A stretch of 64,000 nt of DNA from an uncultured Candidatus Saccharibacteria bacterium (GTDB lineage: Bacteria; Patescibacteriota; Minisyncoccia; Portnoybacterales; UBA2143). The notes under the pieces are model-generated. The model did no database searches and was not told the origin of the DNA. It saw only the letters and a program-made list of their open reading frames with translations. This document shows positions 4,239-48,704 of the stretch, one piece after another. The DNA lies in assembly GCA_964413015.1 (NCBI GenBank), contig CAYPQZ010000008.1, positions 37,387 to 101,386 on the forward strand, written 5' to 3'. The stretch's first letter is position 1; every line of letters starts with the position of its first letter. The translations under genes and the position numbers were made by a program.

Positions 4239-4580
4239 TTAAGGCAGCAGCTTGGCTTTTTTAAACAAACTGGCTAAATTTTCTTTTATTGCCTGATAAT
4301 CTTTTTCTTTTATTTCTGGATTAACCATAACAATTATATCAAACCCGGGCTTCATTTCTTCCAGTTTTAACCTAATTATTTCTTCCAAGCGTCGTTTAAT
4401 TTTATTTCTCTGCACAGCCCTTTTGGAAATTTTGAGACCGATTAAAAAGCCAAATCTGTTTATTGCTAAGTCGTTTTTTAATATTTTAATTTTAATAAAC
4501 TGTTGCTGAAAATATTTTCCCTGTTTGAACGTTTCCTTGAAATCGTTTTCTTCTTTCAGCTTGTATTTTCTGGGCAACAT
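4239..4580 (-). CDS. rnpA: Ribonuclease P protein component
   Basis: 113 aa, basic, with an RnpA-like core (FGFLIGLKISKRAVQRNKIKRRLEEI). It lies between rpmH and yidC. Confidence 0.8.
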   Translation of the reverse strand: MLPRKYKLKEENDFKETFKQGKYFQQQFIKIKILKNDLAINRFGFLIGLKISKRAVQRNKIKRRLEEIIRLKLEEMKPGFDIIVMVNPEIKEKDYQAIKENLASLFKKAKLLP

Positions 4581-27949: not shown

Positions 27950-28283
27950 TGGAGATGGCGGGAATCGAACCCGCGTCTAAAAGGCATTTCTTAATAATTC
28001 TACAAGCTTAGCTTGATTTGGATAAAATTAAAAACTTAAAACCAAGCAAAAAATTTTTAATTTTTGTTTCTAAGATTCAACAATCAGCTGAAACCTTCCG
28101 ATTGTTTATCCTGATAGGATAACACCCAAAGCTTTTCATCAGGAGTCAAAAGTTCGGATGGCTACTTATTTAAGCAGTAGCAAAAGCTAAATTTTCGTTA
28201 GCAATTATTAGTTTGCGAGATTAACGAGTTCGCGCTCGGCTTGCTTATTAAAAAAAGAACTTTTATCGATGCCTGGCATCCCC
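27950..28283 (-). ncRNA. ssrA: tmRNA (ssrA)
   Basis: Reverse strand: the 5' GGGGAUGCCAGGCAUCGA pairs with the 3' ...GACGCGGGUUCGAUUCCCGCCAUCUCCA (tRNA-like T-arm + acceptor). The internal tag frame GCU AAC GAA AAU UUA GCU UUU GCU ACU GCU UAA (ANENLAFATA*) parallels ANDENYALAA. It lies immediately downstream of smpB. Confidence 0.75.
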
Positions 28284-43777: not shown

Positions 43778-45082
43778 TTATTGCTGGGTTGGATTAATAA
43801 CTTTTCCCATAAACAGAATATTCCCTGTTTCTATTTCCTGAATTATAAAAATAAATGGGTGATCTGCTCTAAAGACATTTCTTGGCATAACGCTTCCAAC
43901 CATTCCAACGCCAGTAGCTGCTGCGGCTTCTGTCCCTTTTTCATCAACTTTAACATAAGCTTGATGGATTACAAAATCAATCCACATTTTTTCCGCTGTG
44001 GCCATTCCAGAAAAATCAGCGTTATTTGGATCAAACGCCATTGACATTCCTAAGGCTTTTAAATTTTCATTTAAAGTATATTTTGTTTCAAATTCAAATT
44101 TTGGAAGCGAGATTGAACCTAGCTTTGTTTCTTCCATTTGTAATTTATATTCGTCAAGTTTCTCGGCAGACAATTCTATATCTTCAAGCGTATAATCAGA
44201 AATAATTTGTTCTCCGGTTTCAGAATCATAATCTTCTCCTTGCTTTGGCAATAATATTAACATAGAAATATCTTCACCTTTATAAGGAAGTTCCAAAATT
44301 TGCAATTTTCCTATATCGGCATAATTAAATTTTGCTTTATCAGGAGCCATATACATCATGGGGGTTTTTATAATATTGGTTGGCGTTATTTTAAAGTCTT
44401 GGTCGCAAGTGTCGGCTTTATCAAATTCCCATTCCCAAGTTCCTTTAAAATAAATAGCATTAGTAAGAATCAATCTTACCATTTCATTGATAAATCCTTT
44501 CGGAATGAAGTCTTTGATTTTATTATTAGTTTGCTCTTCTATAAAGCTATTAATTGTTTGCCTTGATTTTTCTGTCTCTCCAGCAAAATCCAAATTTGCT
44601 ACTTTGCCGCCATAATATTTTTCAACTTTGCTTATATAATCTTCAAGGAAAGGGTAATCCTGCTGAGCCCACAAAGCATTACCCGTCCTTAATTCATAGT
44701 CTTTTTCGCTTTCATTGATATCATTATAGATTGAGGCAAAATTAGGTCTTAATGTACTAATTTCTGGGAAGCGAAAAACAGACTTCATTTCATCAGCTGT
44801 TTGTCCTTTGGCGCCCTCATAAGTCATTGCTAAAGCAGCAGAAATGCTATAAGGTGAATAAAATATATTTTCATCTTGCGCTTTGTTTAATTCTGAATAG
44901 AGTTCAAAAGCAAATTGATTATTAGCATTTGCTATCTCTTGGATGCCTTGTTGCGTTGAATCAGTATCATCTGCATATGGCGGTTGCTTTGGTTCATAAG
45001 GAGAAGGGAACAATACTGCGGCAACTGTTGCTACAGCGACTGTAAGGAGCGCTATCACGATTATTAAAATTTTTTTGTTCAT
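43778..45082 (-). CDS. Secreted serpin (serine protease inhibitor)
   Basis: The signal peptide MNKKILIIVIALLTVAVATVAAV fits the start at 45082 (the ORF-track start is 18 nt upstream). It has serpin motifs NAIYFKGTWEWEF and C-terminal FRADHPFIFIIQE..GNILFMGKV (hinge/RCL region). Confidence 0.8.
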   Translation of the reverse strand: MNKKILIIVIALLTVAVATVAAVLFPSPYEPKQPPYADDTDSTQQGIQEIANANNQFAFELYSELNKAQDENIFYSPYSISAALAMTYEGAKGQTADEMKSVFRFPEISTLRPNFASIYNDINESEKDYELRTGNALWAQQDYPFLEDYISKVEKYYGGKVANLDFAGETEKSRQTINSFIEEQTNNKIKDFIPKGFINEMVRLILTNAIYFKGTWEWEFDKADTCDQDFKITPTNIIKTPMMYMAPDKAKFNYADIGKLQILELPYKGEDISMLILLPKQGEDYDSETGEQIISDYTLEDIELSAEKLDEYKLQMEETKLGSISLPKFEFETKYTLNENLKALGMSMAFDPNNADFSGMATAEKMWIDFVIHQAYVKVDEKGTEAAAATGVGMVGSVMPRNVFRADHPFIFIIQEIETGNILFMGKVINPTQQ

Positions 45083-45453
45083 ATAATTCAATAGATTCAT
45101 TAAAGCTTATATACATTATAACAGAGAATTATTAAATTTTGCAAGGAGGATTCCCAATCGAGTTCTTTCTCTAATAGGAAGCATTAGTATTGGCTTTAAT
45201 GCATGTATCCGGGTTAAATGTGAGTGAAATGGTTTAGAATAAAAATTTAGATGATTATTTTTTTGAAAGTAATCGCGGCAACGGAATAGTTAAAAAAGCT
45301 GTTCAGAAGATTTTCCCAAATGTCTTAAAAAATGCTAAAATTAGAAAGTCGGTTGAATTGTTAGTCTATAAAGGTTAGAGACAACTTAAATCTATACTAA
45401 AGTAGCTAACTTAAAATTAAAGGATATTTCTAATCCTTTAGATAATTTATAAT

Positions 45454-45537
45454 ATGTCTAAATACAATCCGCAGAAAATTGAGAAAAAGTGGCCCGCCTT
45501 CGCCAAGGCTTCGGCAGGGCAGGCAAAAGAACTATGA
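45454..45537 (+). CDS. Upstream ORF (27 codons) duplicating the LeuRS N-terminus; stop overlaps leuS ATG (ATGA)
   Basis: It encodes MSKYNPQKIEKKWPAFAKASAGQAKEL. Its first 13 residues match the canonical LeuRS N-terminus (YNP.EIE.KWQ..W) and the true leuS start MKYNFNKIEPKWQKKW. The DNA also matches (GAGAAAAAGTGGCCCGCC vs CAGAAAAAGTGGGCCGAG). Confidence 0.3.
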   Translation: MSKYNPQKIEKKWPAFAKASAGQAKEL

Positions 45538-47933
45538 AATATAACTTTAATAAAATAGAACCTAAATGGCAGAAAAAGTGGGCCGAGCAGGAGCTTTATC
45601 AAGCCAAAGATTTTGATAAGCGGCCCAAGAAATATATTATGGTGGAGTTCCCCTATCCTTCGGGCGACGGTCTGCATATGGGGCACTTGCGCAGTTATTG
45701 CTCTTTAGACGCTTTGGCGCGCAAAAAAAGAATGGAAGGGTTTAACGTCCTTTATCCCATGGGTTGGGATGCTTTTGGCCTGCCGACCGAGAATTACGCT
45801 ATTAAGACCGGAATCCATCCGGCCAAAGTGACTGCTGAAAATATTAAAGTTTTTAAAAAGCAGATGAATTCATTGGGTCTTTCTTTTGACTGGTCGCGGG
45901 AAATTAACACGACCGACCCCGAATACTATAAATGGTCTCAGTGGATATTCCTTCAGTTTTTCAAAAAAGGTCTGGCTTATCAATCGGAAATGCCAATCAA
46001 CTGGTGTCCTAGCTGTAAAATCGGTCTGGCTAATGAAGAAGTTATTTCCGGCAAGTGCGAACGCTGTGGCGTCCAGACCGAGAAAAAAACAATCAAACAG
46101 TGGATGCTTAAAATTACCGAGTACGCCGACCGGTTAATTGGGGATTTAGACAAGGTTAATTATTTAGACAAAATTAAGACCCAGCAAATTAACTGGATTG
46201 GCCGAAGTTACGGCAGCCAGTTTGATTTGCCGGTAGTTGACTCTTCGGAAAAGATTACTGTTTTTACTACTCGTATAGACACTATTTTCGGCATTACAGC
46301 CATGATTGTAGCTCCAGAACATCCTTTATTGGACAAATTGACTATTTCGAAAAACAAAGAAAAAGTTAAAGAGTATGTTTTAGAATCTAAAAAGAAAAGC
46401 GAATTTGAAAGAACCCAATTAGAAAAAGAAAAAACTGGTGTTTTCACCGGCTCTTATTGCCTTAATCCGATTAATCAAGAAAAAGTGCCGATTTGGGTGA
46501 GTGATTATGTAATTGCCACTTACGGCGGCGGAGCGGTTATGATTGTTCCGGCTCACGATAAAAGAGATTATCAATTTGCCAAAAAATATGGTTTGGAAAT
46601 TAGAGAAGTTATTAGCGGAGGCAATATTGAAGATGAACCTTATACGGAATATGGCAAATTGGTGAATTCAGGCGAATTTAACGGTTTGACTTCACGGGAA
46701 GCCATTAAAAAAATTACTGAATGGTTGATTAAGAATCGATGTGGCCAGCGGACAGTTCAATACAAACTGCGCGATTGGATTTTTTCCCGTCAGCATTACT
46801 GGGGCGAGCCAATTCCGATTATTCATTGTCCGAAATGCGGAGCGGTGGCTGTACCGGATAAAGATTTGCCAGTAAAACTGCCGGAAGTTGAAAGATATCA
46901 ACCCAGTAATACTGGAGAGTCGCCTTTAGCTAAAATTAAAGAATGGGTTGAGACAAAATGTCCGGAATGCGGCGGACCGGCCCAGCGGGAGACCGACACT
47001 ATGCCTAATTGGGCCGGTTCCTCCTGGTATTTTTTAAGATACATTGACCCGCATAATGATAAAGAATTAGCTGATTCAAAAAAGTTAAAATACTGGCTGC
47101 CGGTTGATTTATACAACGGCGGCATGGAGCATACTACTCTACATCTGCTTTACTCCCGTTTTTGGCATAAATTTTTGTATGATTTGAAGATTGTTCCGAC
47201 CGAAGAGCCTTATCAGCGTCGTTATTCCCACGGAGTGGTTCTGGCTGAAGACAATCGCAAAATGAGTAAGAGTTTTGATAATGTAATTCGGCCAGATGAT
47301 GTTATTAAGAAATATGGGGCTGATACTCTAAGAATTTACGAAATGTTTATGGGGCCTTTTGACCAAATGATTAGCTGGAGCGACAAAGGAGTCCAGGGCT
47401 GTTTTCGTTTCCTGAACCGTGTCTGGCAGGTGTTTAATAATCAGCAGAAAATCAGTTCTCAAACCAGTAAAGAATTGTTGCCCAGGCTCCATCAACTAAT
47501 TAAGAAAGTTGACAAGGATTTGGAAGCGATGAAATTCAATACAGCCGTGGCTGCCTTTATGGAATTTGTGAATGACTGGGCTGAAGACAAACAGGTTTTA
47601 AGTAAAGAAGATACAGAAATTTTCCTGCGGCTATTGTCTCCTCTAACTCCCCATTTAGCCGAAGAATTATGGGAAAAATCAGGCCATCGGAAAAGCATTT
47701 TACTGGAGCCATGGCCGGAGCATGATAAAAAATTAATTAAACAAGAAACTTGGCAATTAATTATTCAAGTCAATGGCAAGGTTAGGGGGAAAATAGAAAT
47801 CAAGCAGGGGATTTCTGAAAAAGAAGCTGGAGAAGTCGCTTTATCGCAGGATAAGATAAAAAAGTGGTTAAATGGGCAAAAACCCAAGAAGATTATCTAT
47901 ATCCCCAATCGTTTGGTTAATATAGTCGTTTAG
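45534..47933 (+). CDS. leuS: Leucyl-tRNA synthetase
   Basis: HIGH (PYPSGDGLHMGHL), a CP1 editing domain and KMSKS (RKMSKSFDN). The ATG at 45534 is preferred over the ORF-track GTG at 45489. Confidence 0.9.
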   Translation: MKYNFNKIEPKWQKKWAEQELYQAKDFDKRPKKYIMVEFPYPSGDGLHMGHLRSYCSLDALARKKRMEGFNVLYPMGWDAFGLPTENYAIKTGIHPAKVTAENIKVFKKQMNSLGLSFDWSREINTTDPEYYKWSQWIFLQFFKKGLAYQSEMPINWCPSCKIGLANEEVISGKCERCGVQTEKKTIKQWMLKITEYADRLIGDLDKVNYLDKIKTQQINWIGRSYGSQFDLPVVDSSEKITVFTTRIDTIFGITAMIVAPEHPLLDKLTISKNKEKVKEYVLESKKKSEFERTQLEKEKTGVFTGSYCLNPINQEKVPIWVSDYVIATYGGGAVMIVPAHDKRDYQFAKKYGLEIREVISGGNIEDEPYTEYGKLVNSGEFNGLTSREAIKKITEWLIKNRCGQRTVQYKLRDWIFSRQHYWGEPIPIIHCPKCGAVAVPDKDLPVKLPEVERYQPSNTGESPLAKIKEWVETKCPECGGPAQRETDTMPNWAGSSWYFLRYIDPHNDKELADSKKLKYWLPVDLYNGGMEHTTLHLLYSRFWHKFLYDLKIVPTEEPYQRRYSHGVVLAEDNRKMSKSFDNVIRPDDVIKKYGADTLRIYEMFMGPFDQMISWSDKGVQGCFRFLNRVWQVFNNQQKISSQTSKELLPRLHQLIKKVDKDLEAMKFNTAVAAFMEFVNDWAEDKQVLSKEDTEIFLRLLSPLTPHLAEELWEKSGHRKSILLEPWPEHDKKLIKQETWQLIIQVNGKVRGKIEIKQGISEKEAGEVALSQDKIKKWLNGQKPKKIIYIPNRLVNIVV

Positions 47934-48576: not shown

Positions 48577-48620
48577 CTAGTCGGCTATCGCATAGCCGAC
48601 TGGAGTAGCCGACTGGATTG

Positions 48621-48704
48621 TGCCGGAGGCGGGAGTCGAACCCGCAAGGACCGAAGTCCACAGCATTTTGAGTGCTGCGTGTCTGCCAGTTCCACCACTC
48701 CGGC
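48621..48704 (-). tRNA. tRNA-Leu (anticodon CAA), type II with long variable arm; CCA not encoded
   Basis: Reverse strand GCCGGAGUGGUGGAACUGGCAGACACGCAGCACUCAAAAUGCUGUGGACUUCGGUCCUUGCGGGUUCGACUCCCGCCUCCGGCA. It has a 7-bp acceptor, a CAGCA/UGCUG anticodon stem with loop CUCAAAA, and a GCGGG/CCCGC T-stem. Confidence 0.85.

What the first reader, a model, noticed from the sequence alone, without database searches (positions are those of the whole stretch)
45454..45580. Upstream ORF that mimics/duplicates the LeuRS N-terminus and overlaps the leuS start codon
A 27-codon ORF (MSKYNPQKIEKKWPAFAKASAGQAKEL) begins 80 nt upstream of leuS and ends with a TGA overlapping the leuS ATG (ATGA). Its first 13 residues match the canonical LeuRS N-terminus (YNPxxIExKW) better than the actual leuS start does (MKYNFNKIEPKWQKKW). 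The nucleotide sequences are also alike. This is a partial tandem duplication of the leuS 5' end: either a coupled leader peptide with possible regulatory use, or an assembly or frameshift artefact masking the true N-terminus.
Basis: seen in the sequence. Interest (0 to 1): 0.5.

Follow-up and report, generated by a model that had tools for sequence, protein, structure and literature searches.

The report
Conserved decoy-start module before leuS
The short upstream reading frame that copies the start of the leucyl-tRNA synthetase is real and belongs to a previously undescribed, selection-maintained module (decoy N-terminus plus a conserved GC-rich spacer) found sporadically at leuS in Patescibacteria, usually fused in frame but here split off as a stop-start-coupled leader.

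Summary
A 27-codon ORF (45454-45537) encodes MSKYNPQKIEKKW..., and its TGA overlaps the leuS ATG at 45534. It is not an artefact: two independent assemblies from other sequencing runs are base-identical. It is not a recent duplication: the two copies are only about 57-64% identical, and the closest relatives (88-93% LeuRS identity) lack it.

The same layout occurs at leuS in at least 13 distinct Patescibacteria lineages whose LeuRS bodies share only 51-74% identity: copy 1, then TGG-CCC, a GC-rich stem, (C)GGGGCA(A/G)GCAAAA, then copy 2. The 3' motif is read in all three frames, so it is conserved as nucleotides. Copy 1 is under protein-level purifying selection equal to the real N-terminus (pN/pS 0.24).

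Most carriers are in frame, giving an N-terminal extension. The window, L099 and L103 are out of frame with an ATGA overlap.

Best reading: ribosomes start at the uORF on a leaderless-type mRNA in a Shine-Dalgarno-poor genome, cross the spacer, stop at UGA and reinitiate at the leuS AUG. The spacer's function is unknown. It is not a T-box, a Leu-codon attenuator or a dispersed repeat. -1 frameshifting is not excluded.

The parts
45439..45453 (+). AT-rich -10-like sequence (TAGATAATTTATAAT) directly abutting the uORF ATG; candidate promoter for a leaderless or very short-leader mRNA
   Evidence: Read from the sequence. Many genes in this window have a TATAAT-like box 0-12 nt before their ATG, and only about 7 of 48 have an SD-like sequence. 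The consensus promoter scan is not decisive. This is an inference.
45454..45492 (+). Copy 1: start codon plus 12 codons, MSKYNPQKIEKKW, imitating the LeuRS N-terminal motif (Y-N-P-x-x-I-E-x-K-W)
   Evidence: The orthologous copy 1 in 8 lineages shows pN/pS 0.24, equal to copy 2, and 0.12 among the three uORF-type loci; wrong-frame controls give 0.67 and 1.29. The Tyr codon is TAC in 8 of 8 copy 1 sequences.
45483..45489 (+). G AAA AAG in the uORF frame: a dnaX-like -1 slippery heptamer lying 2 nt before the stem. This is a candidate only.
   Evidence: Read from the sequence. L099 has a perfect A AAA AAG at the same place; L103 has none. A -1 shift here enters the leuS frame at GTG 45489.
45492..45524 (+). 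GC-rich spacer that folds as a stem-loop: closing stem GCC/GGC, then GCCUU/AGGGC, then GCC/GGC
   Evidence: MFE -18 kcal/mol; z = -1.5 against dinucleotide shuffles. The equivalent spacers in 12 other lineages all close with GCCC(C)/(G)GGGC. Their inner helices are unrelated in sequence but self-complementary. Combined Stouffer Z is about -7. In the window's subfamily the 8 predicted pairs are invariant, so there is no covariation.
45517..45528 (+). Conserved 3' motif GGGCAGGCAAAA, partly within the 3' arm of the stem and followed by an A-rich tail
   Evidence: Occurs once in the 64-kb window. Identical or with one A/G change in L083, L089, L095 and L096, which were found by protein search, and in 12 leuS loci from the metagenome scan. 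It is read as GQAK, as (A/R)(G/S)K, or as GKQK in different loci.
45454..45537 (+). The whole uORF (27 codons plus TGA)
   Evidence: Counterparts are L103 MKKYNPQEIEPKWPPFAKATDGQAKR* and L099 MMKYNFQKIEKKWPILRIKLRRASKI*. The in-frame counterpart of the tail is in P0257...KW-PSSAKATDGQAKM-KKKYNH....
45534..45537 (+). ATGA stop-start overlap: the leuS ATG and the uORF TGA
   Evidence: The same 4-nt junction joins 4 of 19 closely spaced co-directional gene pairs in this window. It is also present in L099 and L103. In L103 the upstream NUDIX gene is joined to the uORF in the same way.
45534..47933 (+). leuS (799 codons from ATG 45534). Its first 12 codons are copy 2, MKYNFNKIEPKW.
   Evidence: Pfam tRNA-synt_1 profile position 1 aligns to residue 11, and the editing and anticodon-binding domains are present. 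It is 89% identical to P0002, which has no module. Gene callers used GTG 45489 instead, giving 814 aa (P0001).

Best explanation
The uORF is a genuine, selection-maintained leader cistron. It belongs to a conserved leuS 5' module found sporadically across Patescibacteria. The module has three parts in order: (i) a start codon plus about 12 codons that imitate the LeuRS N-terminus; (ii) a spacer of about 35-70 nt that closes with GCCC(C)/(G)GGGC and ends in (C)GGGGCA(A/G)GCAAAA plus an A-run; (iii) the real LeuRS N-terminus. In most carriers the three parts are in one frame and the module is translated as an N-terminal extension of LeuRS. In the window's lineage the frame is broken, most likely in the A-rich tail, so the module ends at a TGA that overlaps the retained internal ATG. 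Proposed mechanism in the window (inferred): the mRNA is leaderless or has a very short leader, and ribosomes load at AUG 45454. They translate copy 1, unwind the GC-rich stem, terminate at UGA 45535-37 and reinitiate at AUG 45534, making a canonical 799-aa LeuRS. The stem would otherwise occlude the purine-rich stretch just upstream of the leuS AUG, so leuS translation depends on uORF translation. The nucleotide-level conservation of the spacer implies an additional cis-acting role, with an unknown effector. What is shown: the anatomy, reproducibility, family membership, frame-independence of the motif, and selection on copy 1. What is inferred: the transcription start, translation of the uORF, reinitiation, and any regulatory role.
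For: Reality: identical sequence in three assemblies.

Family: the same architecture is found by protein search (L083-85, L089, L090, L091, L092). It is also found by a frame-independent metagenome DNA scan, where 12 of 13 hits are leuS 5' ends, and by an exhaustive HMMER search (P0245, P0334, P0257, P0244).

The motif is read in three frames. All five carriers that lack an ATG before copy 2 are in frame and free of stops across 69-99 nt, so the module is translated there.

Copy 1 has pN/pS 0.24, the same as copy 2, and 0.12 among the uORF-type loci.

The carriers' LeuRS bodies are 51-74% identical. Window and L103 share 59% LeuRS amino-acid identity, while by my hand comparison of the sequences their spacers are about 86% identical in nucleotides.

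Coupling: an ATGA overlap in three uORF-type loci, representing at least two independent frame registers; a NUDIX-uORF-leuS chain of ATGA junctions in L103; ATGA used by 4 of 19 close gene pairs in the window; an SD-poor genome with -10-like boxes abutting start codons, including the uORF's, but not at leuS ATG 45534. Strict coupling at ATGA overlaps is documented experimentally in bacteria and archaea (PMC6728339).

The leuS ORF from 45534 is complete.
Against: There are no expression data, so the transcription start is unknown. A TATAAT at 45448-45453 could instead place the start inside the uORF, which would make the module a 5' UTR. The leuS AUG lies in an unstructured A/U-rich stretch and might be used independently; in L098 and L100 copy 1 is broken, yet leuS presumably works. 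In the window's own subfamily the stem is no more stable than shuffled GC-rich sequence (z from -1.9 to +0.8), and its pairs never vary, so an RNA structure is not demonstrated there. Sense and antisense strands fold equally well. The invariance of GGGCARGCAAAA is partly due to ascertainment, because the metagenome pattern required it. Why a free 27-aa peptide should keep a LeuRS-like motif under selection is not explained by coupling alone.
Confidence: 0.6

Rival explanations
1. Programmed -1 ribosomal frameshifting. A fraction of ribosomes slip at G AAA AAG (45483-89), stimulated by the GC-rich stem just downstream. They continue in the leuS frame from GTG 45489, producing an N-terminally extended LeuRS (MSKYNPQKIEKK-VARLRQGFGRAGKRT-MKYNF...) like the in-frame carriers. 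The remaining ribosomes terminate and reinitiate.
For: The uORF-to-leuS offset is exactly -1 in all three out-of-frame loci. AAA AAG precedes the stem in the window (G AAA AAG) and in L099 (perfect A AAA AAG), and in none of six in-frame loci. A stable stem follows, with its inner 8-bp part about 6 nt away. Frameshifting would explain purifying selection on copy 1 in uORF-type loci. Between window and L103, an adjacent CA-to-AC change in the spacer is doubly synonymous in the leuS frame (GGC AGG against GGA CGG; sequences).
Against: L103 has no canonical slippery heptamer (CCA AAA TGG). AAA AAG simply encodes the consensus Lys-Lys of the motif. The spacer between the slippery site and the stem base is 2 nt, against the usual 5-9. 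Two of three against none of six is not significant (Fisher p about 0.08, my calculation). The linker peptide is not conserved across the family in any frame. The internal ATG and the ATGA overlap make frameshifting unnecessary.
Confidence: 0.12
2. Sequencing or assembly error. A 1-nt indel in the GC-rich stretch or the A-run artificially splits a single ORF encoding an N-terminally extended LeuRS.
For: In-frame versions are the majority in other lineages. GC-rich hairpins and homopolymer runs are error-prone. The window and L089/L096 share the same 11-nt register between the motif and copy 2.
Against: The sequence is identical in the NCBI-derived window and in two Logan assemblies from different runs. 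The A-run here is only 4 nt. L103 has the same register and the same out-of-frame ATGA arrangement in a different sample and lineage (59% LeuRS identity), and L099 has it in a different register.
Confidence: 0.04
3. A neutral relic. A tandem duplication of the leuS 5' end, or a leftover 5' fragment after recombinational replacement of leuS, decaying without function. The leuS ATG is used on its own.
For: Distribution is patchy and the module is absent from the closest relatives. Copy 1 is degenerate in L098 (in-frame TAG) and L100 (truncated). Deletion between the two direct copies would restore a normal gene, so loss should be easy.
Against: Copy 1 keeps the amino-acid motif while its synonymous sites are saturated (pS 0.86-1.07, pN/pS 0.12-0.24). 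The spacer is conserved at the nucleotide level across hosts whose LeuRS share 51-74% identity. Within-genome copies are no more alike than between-genome copies, and the TAC/TAT marker points to one old origin.
Confidence: 0.1
4. A small mobile palindromic element (MITE, REP or RPE-like) that inserted into the leuS 5' end, with the flanking copies arising as a target duplication.
For: It is a GC-rich palindrome in an AT-rich genome. The ends are conserved and inverted (GCCCC...GGGGC) while the interior varies. Distribution is patchy. Both strands fold equally well. The spacer is more similar between window and L103 than their LeuRS genes are.
Against: There is no second copy in the 64-kb window or in 815 kb of related loci, and every exact or 1-mismatch motif with a matching arm is at a leuS start apart from one probable chance match in L095. 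A 36-39-nt target duplication is unlike known transposition. Copy 1 differs systematically from copy 2 (TAC against TAT), so it was not copied from the local copy 2.
Confidence: 0.08
5. A classical amino-acid-sensing leader: a Leu-codon leader-peptide attenuator as in Streptomyces leuS, or a T-box as in Firmicutes leuS.
For: It is a short ORF followed by a stem upstream of an aminoacyl-tRNA synthetase gene. The window's uORF ends with a Leu codon (CTA) next to the stop.
Against: The window's uORF has a single Leu codon, L103's has none and L099's has two, with none at conserved positions. There is no terminator-like site (0 found) and no U-run after the stem. No T-box or any other Rfam family approaches its threshold. 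In most carriers the 'leader' is fused in frame to the enzyme.
Confidence: 0.03

Closest known systems
Translational coupling by termination-reinitiation at ATGA stop-start overlaps (Huber et al. 2019, PMC6728339)
   Same: The 4-nt ATGA overlap, with the upstream cistron in the +1 frame relative to the downstream one. The downstream start has no strong signals of its own. The same junction joins real gene pairs in this genome.
   Different: The upstream cistron is a 27-codon ORF rather than a gene. It imitates the N-terminus of the downstream protein, and in related lineages it is fused in frame to that protein.
Leader-peptide attenuators of aminoacyl-tRNA synthetase genes (Streptomyces leuS and trpS, gamma-proteobacterial pheST; PMC1262725)
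   Same: A short upstream ORF plus a stem-loop ahead of a synthetase gene.
   Different: There is no run of cognate codons, no terminator/antiterminator pair and no U-tract. The stem lies inside the ORF, and the stop overlaps the start codon.
prfB (RF2) and dnaX recoding sites
   Same: A short first ORF of about 26 codons at the start of an essential translation gene. It is followed by a frame change, with an A AAA AAG-type sequence and a downstream stem as in dnaX.
   Different: prfB uses a +1 shift at CUU UGA with an upstream SD. Here the required shift is -1, the heptamer is imperfect in the window and absent in L103, and an in-frame ATG makes recoding unnecessary. This is a resemblance only, and it was not tested.
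Palindromic elements that insert in frame into coding sequences (Rickettsia palindromic elements; GC-cluster 'byp' elements of Magnusiomyces mitochondria). Recalled from my own knowledge, not tested here.
   Same: A GC-rich hairpin-forming insert within an ORF of an AT-rich genome, tolerated in any reading frame.
   Different: Those elements are dispersed multi-copy repeats. This one is single-copy and tied to one site in one gene, and it is accompanied by a selected duplicate of the N-terminal motif. The in-frame, stop-free state of all ATG-less carriers argues for ordinary translation rather than bypassing.
E. coli thrS translational operator (tRNA mimic bound by ThrRS). Recalled from my own knowledge.
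   Same: A structured element at the 5' end of a synthetase mRNA that could serve autoregulation. The closing stem G-C, C-G, C-G followed by an unpaired A resembles the first three acceptor pairs plus A73 of the window's tRNA-Leu(CAA).
   Different: There is no CCA-like tail. The resemblance is shared with many tRNAs. The element lies about 40 nt downstream of the first AUG. No binding was tested.

Membership tests
T-box riboswitch | Match to the T-box covariance model (Stem I with specifier loop, antiterminator with the UGGN bulge) | tested here: not met
   An Rfam scan of 45000-45800 at E <= 10 returned only three chance-level hits, none of them a T-box.
Leader-peptide transcription attenuator (Streptomyces leuS type) | A run of cognate (Leu) codons in the leader peptide | tested here: not met
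   The window's uORF has one Leu codon (the last), L103's has none and L099's has two, none at conserved positions.
Leader-peptide transcription attenuator (Streptomyces leuS type) | An intrinsic terminator hairpin with a U-tract, plus an alternative antiterminator | tested here: not met
   No terminator-like sites in 45050-45650. The stem is followed by CAGGCAAAAGAAC, not by a U-run.
Termination-reinitiation coupled cistron pair | Co-directional ORFs with a 4-nt ATGA (or 1-nt) stop-start overlap | tested here: met
   ATGA at 45534-45537. The same overlap is present in L099 and L103.
Termination-reinitiation coupled cistron pair | Downstream translation depends on upstream translation | not testable with these tools
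   This needs reporter or ribosome-profiling data. The only indirect support is that ATG 45534 has no SD and no -10 context.
Programmed -1 ribosomal frameshift site (dnaX type) | An X XXY YYZ slippery heptamer in the zero frame | tested here: inconclusive
   The window has G AAA AAG (imperfect first base), L099 has A AAA AAG (perfect), and L103 has none.
Programmed -1 ribosomal frameshift site (dnaX type) | A stimulatory structure 5-9 nt downstream | tested here: inconclusive
   The stem base starts 2 nt after the heptamer, and the inner 8-bp helix about 6 nt after it.
Dispersed palindromic repeat (REP, MITE or RPE-like) | Multiple copies per genome at unrelated sites | tested here: not met
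   One copy in the 64-kb window. Across 815 kb of loci, exact or 1-mismatch copies occur only at leuS starts, apart from one probable chance match in L095. Whole carrier genomes were not scanned.
Translational bypassing (T4 gene 60 or byp type) | The coding gap is not translated, so there is no constraint on its frame or stops; a stop follows the take-off codon | tested here: not met
   All five carriers without an internal ATG are in frame and stop-free through the spacer. The codon after TGG is CCC, not a stop.
The leuS 5' module defined here | Copy 1 of Y-[ND]-x-x-x-[IV]-E-x-K-W, then TGG-CCC and a stem closed by GCCC/GGGC, then GGGCARGCAAAA, then copy 2 at the start of a complete LeuRS | tested here: met
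   The window has every element in the same order and register as L103, L099, L097, L094, L083 and L105.

The most novel reading that the evidence does not exclude
The module is a dedicated, leuS-specific regulatory device. A selected 'decoy' N-terminal peptide and a conserved structured RNA, whose closing stem plus unpaired A resembles the tRNA-Leu acceptor end, together set LeuRS output. This could work through LeuRS or tRNA-Leu binding to the spacer, or through a nascent-peptide effect. In out-of-frame lineages such as this one, -1 frameshifting at (G/A) AAA AAG would make a long and a short LeuRS isoform from one mRNA. That would be a new class of synthetase autoregulation or recoding, found in the reduced, SD-poor translation systems of Patescibacteria.
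Probability: 0.15. Interest if true: 0.75.

Novelty: new variant of a known kind. Interest (0 to 1): 0.55.

Why it matters
Control of aminoacyl-tRNA synthetase genes is textbook material for proteobacteria (attenuators, the thrS operator) and Firmicutes (T-boxes), but it is essentially unknown in Patescibacteria (CPR). These bacteria have tiny genomes, few recognisable regulators and, in this window, almost no Shine-Dalgarno sequences.

This element is conserved in nucleotides yet translated in any of three frames. It is flanked by a duplicate of the enzyme's own N-terminus that selection maintains even when it is a separate 27-codon ORF. That gives a concrete, testable handle on how such organisms start and tune translation of an essential gene.

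It also has a practical consequence for annotation. Gene callers currently give this leuS a spurious GTG start at 45489 (814 aa), and they either miss the module or call it an unexplained N-terminal extension.

If the module proves to be only a tolerated relic, the result is still a clean example of an N-terminal extension converting into a coupled uORF.

Tried and rejected
1. An Rfam scan of the region at E <= 10 found nothing relevant.

2. The GC-rich spacer as a repeat in the window: it occurs as a single copy.

3. Eighty species-representative leuS loci were scanned for a second motif copy or a hairpin-only leader. None was found, apart from one chance hit.

4. Concerted evolution or independent local duplication was rejected. 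Within-locus copy identity equals between-locus identity (permutation p = 0.22).

5. Origin of the 3' motif from the LeuRS '...YQAKDF' codons (a tandem duplication of about 26 codons) looked attractive for the window and L083. I dropped it because carriers whose own LeuRS lacks QAK (L094, L097) have the same motif.

6. Translational bypassing from TGG to TGG would give a canonical N-terminus, but that is true of any direct repeat, and the ATG-less carriers are all in frame.

7. Sense against antisense folding, as an RNA-versus-DNA test, was uninformative.

8. RNAalifold on the MAFFT alignment of 12 spacers predicted no pairs, because the inner helix cannot be put in register. On the window's subfamily it predicted 8 invariant pairs. 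I therefore built no covariance model.

9. tRNA-Leu mimicry: only the generic GCC...GGC-A resemblance was seen, and I did not pursue it.

10. L090, with two modules on one contig, looked like evidence of mobility. It is best explained as a chimeric assembly of two strains (L096-type and L095-type).

11. DNA for P0257 and P0245 could not be retrieved.

12. Literature searches found no description of this module.
Full report
**1. What is in the sequence**

The window reads `...TAGATAATTTATAAT ATG TCT AAA TAC AAT CCG CAG AAA ATT GAG AAA AAG TGG CCC GCC TTC GCC AAG GCT TCG GCA GGG CAG GCA AAA GAA CTA TGA AAT ATA AC...`. The ORF 45454-45537 encodes MSKYNPQKIEKKWPAFAKASAGQAKEL*. Its TGA (45535-37) overlaps the ATG at 45534, which opens a 799-codon leuS beginning MKYNFNKIEPKWQKKW. 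The leuS frame stays open upstream as far as a GTG at 45489, and gene callers used that start (P0001, 814 aa). The Pfam class I synthetase model starts at residue 11 of the ORF from 45534, so that ORF is a complete LeuRS and nothing is hidden upstream. Between the two motif copies lies a 33-nt stretch of about 75% G+C in a genome of about 30-40% G+C. It folds into a stem-loop of -18 kcal/mol.

**2. Not an artefact, and not a fresh duplication**

The interval 45300-45640 is base-identical in two Logan assemblies from different sequencing runs (L081 from SRR2989655, L082 from SRR1179181). The two motif copies are only 57% identical over their ten shared codons, no more than copies taken from different genomes (mean 0.65; permutation p = 0.22). 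The closest relative (P0002; 89% identity overall, 93% over the first 380 residues) has a plain leuS start preceded by a terminator and a promoter-like sequence (L086). None of 80 species-representative leuS loci has a second copy.

**3. It belongs to a family**

Three independent searches found the same layout.

- **Protein searches** found LeuRS N-termini with the same doubled motif fused in frame: P0077 (MEKYEPQKIEPKW-PRKNFSKKNLTGQAK-NYNPQRIEKKWQ), P0121, P0135, P0162 and P0225.
- **An exhaustive HMMER search** added P0245, P0334, P0257 and P0244.
- **A frame-independent metagenome scan** for the motif followed by the first codons of copy 2 returned 13 stretches. Twelve of them are leuS 5' ends with the full layout.

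The DNA shows what these loci share: `...AA(A/G) TGG CCC(C)... variable interior ...CT(A/T)CGG..GGGCA(A/G)GCAAAA(A)n`, then copy 2.

The 3' motif is read as G-Q-A-K in L083, L105 and the window's uORF. It is read as (A/R)-(G/S)-K in L089, L096 and the leuS frames of the window and L103, and as G-K-Q-K in L094, L097 and L102. It is therefore conserved as nucleotides and not as peptide. The `CTWCGG` block just 5' of it was not part of the search pattern and is conserved as well. One caveat applies: the invariance of the 12-mer among the metagenome hits is by construction. The independent support comes from the loci found by protein search (window, L083, L089, L095, L096), with L091 and L092 as diverged versions.

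**4. Architectural classes**

| Class | Loci |
|---|---|
| In frame, no ATG before copy 2 | L083, L094 (=L101; ORF starts at 4554 with a further basic extension), L097, L102, L105 |
| In frame, with an internal ATG | L089, L096 (=L104), L095 |
| Out of frame, uORF ending in ATGA on the leuS ATG | window, L103 (MKKYNPQEIEPKWPPFAKATDGQAKR*), L099 (MMKYNFQKIEKKWPILRIKLRRASKI*) |
| Copy 1 degenerate | L098 (in-frame TAG), L100 (truncated) |

All five ATG-less carriers are in frame and stop-free through 69-99 nt. In those lineages the module must be translated as an N-terminal extension. This argues against bypassing or excision.

The window and L103 share one register between motif and copy 2, and L099 has another, so the out-of-frame state arose at least twice. 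P0257 (...KW-PSSAKATDGQAKM-KKKYNH...) is the in-frame counterpart of the window's uORF tail. This places the frame break in the A-rich tail, where the A-run varies from 4 to 8 between loci.

**5. Structure**

Every spacer folds with the same closing stem, GCCC(C)/(G)GGGC, leaving A(A/G)GCAAAA unpaired. Inside the closing stem, several lineages have perfect helices of unrelated sequence:

- L102: UCCCGC/GCGGGA
- L105: CAAAUGC/GCAUUUG
- L098: GGUUUUC/GAAAAUC
- L083: AAAUUUUUC/GAAAAAUUU

Against dinucleotide shuffles these four give z = -3.0 to -4.4, and the combined Stouffer Z over 13 sequences is about -7, although the sequences are not fully independent.

In the window's own subfamily (window, L103, L099, L097, L094) the folds are no better than shuffled GC-rich sequence (z from -1.9 to +0.8). 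RNAalifold finds eight pairs there, all invariant. What is conserved in that subfamily is sequence; by my hand comparison of the sequences, the window and L103 spacers are about 86% identical. RNAalifold on all 12 spacers predicts nothing, because the inner helix cannot be aligned. Sense and antisense strands fold equally well. An RNA structure is therefore plausible but unproven, and a DNA-level palindrome is not excluded.

**6. Selection and history**

Copy 1 evolves like a coding sequence. Its pS is 0.86 (saturated) and its pN is 0.21, giving pN/pS 0.24, the same as copy 2. Among the three uORF-type loci alone pN/pS is 0.12. The wrong-frame controls give 0.67 and 1.29. The search pattern did not require copy 1. 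Its Tyr codon is TAC in 8 of 8 loci, against TAT in 8 of 9 for copy 2, which points to one origin of the copy 1 + spacer unit rather than repeated local duplication.

The carriers' LeuRS bodies share only 51-74% identity, and each carrier's nearest LeuRS among the non-carriers is as close or closer. The distribution is therefore patchy. Either the module is old and often lost, which deletion between the two direct copies would make easy, or it spreads with leuS 5' DNA by recombination. I could not separate these two histories.

Exact or near-exact copies occur only at leuS starts across 815 kb of sequence, which argues against a dispersed mobile repeat.

**7. How it most likely works in the window**

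This genome has almost no Shine-Dalgarno sequences (about 7 of 48 genes by a lax test). TATAAT-like boxes typically sit 0-12 nt before start codons, which suggests leaderless or very short-leader mRNAs. The uORF ATG has that context, and the leuS ATG does not. ATGA overlaps join 4 of 19 close co-directional gene pairs in the window. Such overlaps have been shown experimentally to give strict termination-reinitiation coupling (PMC6728339). In L103 the upstream NUDIX gene, the uORF and leuS are linked by two successive ATGA junctions.

I infer that ribosomes enter at 45454, translate the decoy N-terminus, open the stem, stop at UGA and restart at AUG 45534. The G-rich 3' arm and the A-rich tail would be exposed only by that passage.

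This account does not explain why the spacer is conserved in nucleotides, or why a free 27-residue peptide keeps a LeuRS-like motif. I state that gap openly.

**8. Alternatives**

- **-1 frameshifting.** Slippage at G AAA AAG just before the stem would recreate the extended LeuRS, and it would explain the selection on copy 1. L099 has a perfect A AAA AAG but L103 has none, the spacing to the stem is short, and the statistics are weak. I give it about 0.12.
- **Artefact**, about 0.04.
- **Neutral relic**, about 0.10.
- **Mobile palindrome**, about 0.08.
- **Classical attenuator or T-box**, about 0.03. The defining features were tested and are absent.

**9. Comparison and novelty**

In how it works, the window's arrangement resembles a termination-reinitiation coupled pair. 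It is not a member of the attenuator, T-box, bypass or dispersed-repeat families. No Rfam family matches, and full-text searches found no description of it.

I class it as a new variant of known kinds (a coupled uORF, an N-terminal extension) with an unexplained conserved nucleotide element. Interest is moderate at 0.55. It would rise if the spacer proves to be a LeuRS- or tRNA-responsive operator or a recoding signal.

Noticed in passing
window 43778-45100 (-): A 440-aa serpin gene (Pfam PF00079, E = 2e-112) lies divergently upstream of leuS. In relatives, tatD or a toxin-antitoxin pair occupies that position. Serpins are uncommon in bacteria with such reduced genomes.
   Followed up: partly
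window 48620-48704 (-) and 27950-28283 (-): A tRNA-Leu(CAA) gene lies about 700 nt downstream of the leuS-sua5/tsaC pair, on the opposite strand. A tmRNA gene (tag ANENLAFATA*) is also present in the window.
   Followed up: partly
window, genome-wide (gene starts listed): Only about 7 of 48 long ORFs have an SD-like sequence, and many start codons sit 0-12 nt after a TATAAT-like box. This suggests mostly leaderless or short-leader mRNAs. Four of 19 close co-directional gene pairs use ATGA overlaps.
   Followed up: partly
window 45489 (GTG): Public gene calls start leuS at GTG 45489 (814 aa, MARLRQGFGRAGKRT-MKYNF...). That start lies at the 5' base of the stem, and it is simply the A-RTG-G created by the Lys-Trp codons read in the other frame. 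It is probably a mis-annotated start.
   Followed up: partly
L090 1-1464: One contig carries a leuS 5' fragment with the module, fused to the 3' end of tatD, followed by a second complete leuS start with its own module that differs at several bases. It matches L096-type and L095-type strains, so it is probably a chimeric assembly and not a real duplication.
   Followed up: partly
L103 1770-2350: A NUDIX hydrolase gene, the uORF and leuS are linked by two successive ATGA stop-start overlaps.
   Followed up: yes
L099 636-923: A 95-aa GIY-YIG nuclease-domain gene (Pfam E = 2e-17) lies between tatD and the uORF. I considered a link between a homing-type nuclease and rearrangement of the leuS 5' end, but no other carrier shows it.
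   Followed up: partly
L098 1354-1420; L100 2835-2920: Copy 1 is broken here (an in-frame TAG at the Gln position and no Tyr in L098; truncated to MKYDH in L100), while the spacer, the tail and the internal ATG remain. So the spacer can persist without an intact decoy.
   Followed up: partly
L088 1501-1620 (P0098): A different rearrangement of the same region: a 25-residue insertion inside the N-terminal motif (MNYNPQE-PERGKAERMVKMKENPEWGKLHRQ-IEKKWQ) that folds strongly (z = -3.2). Here the tatD TGA overlaps the leuS ATG.
   Followed up: no
L094 4554-4790: This carrier has an extra 46-residue Lys/Arg-rich extension ahead of copy 1, so copy 1 is internal to the protein there.
   Followed up: no
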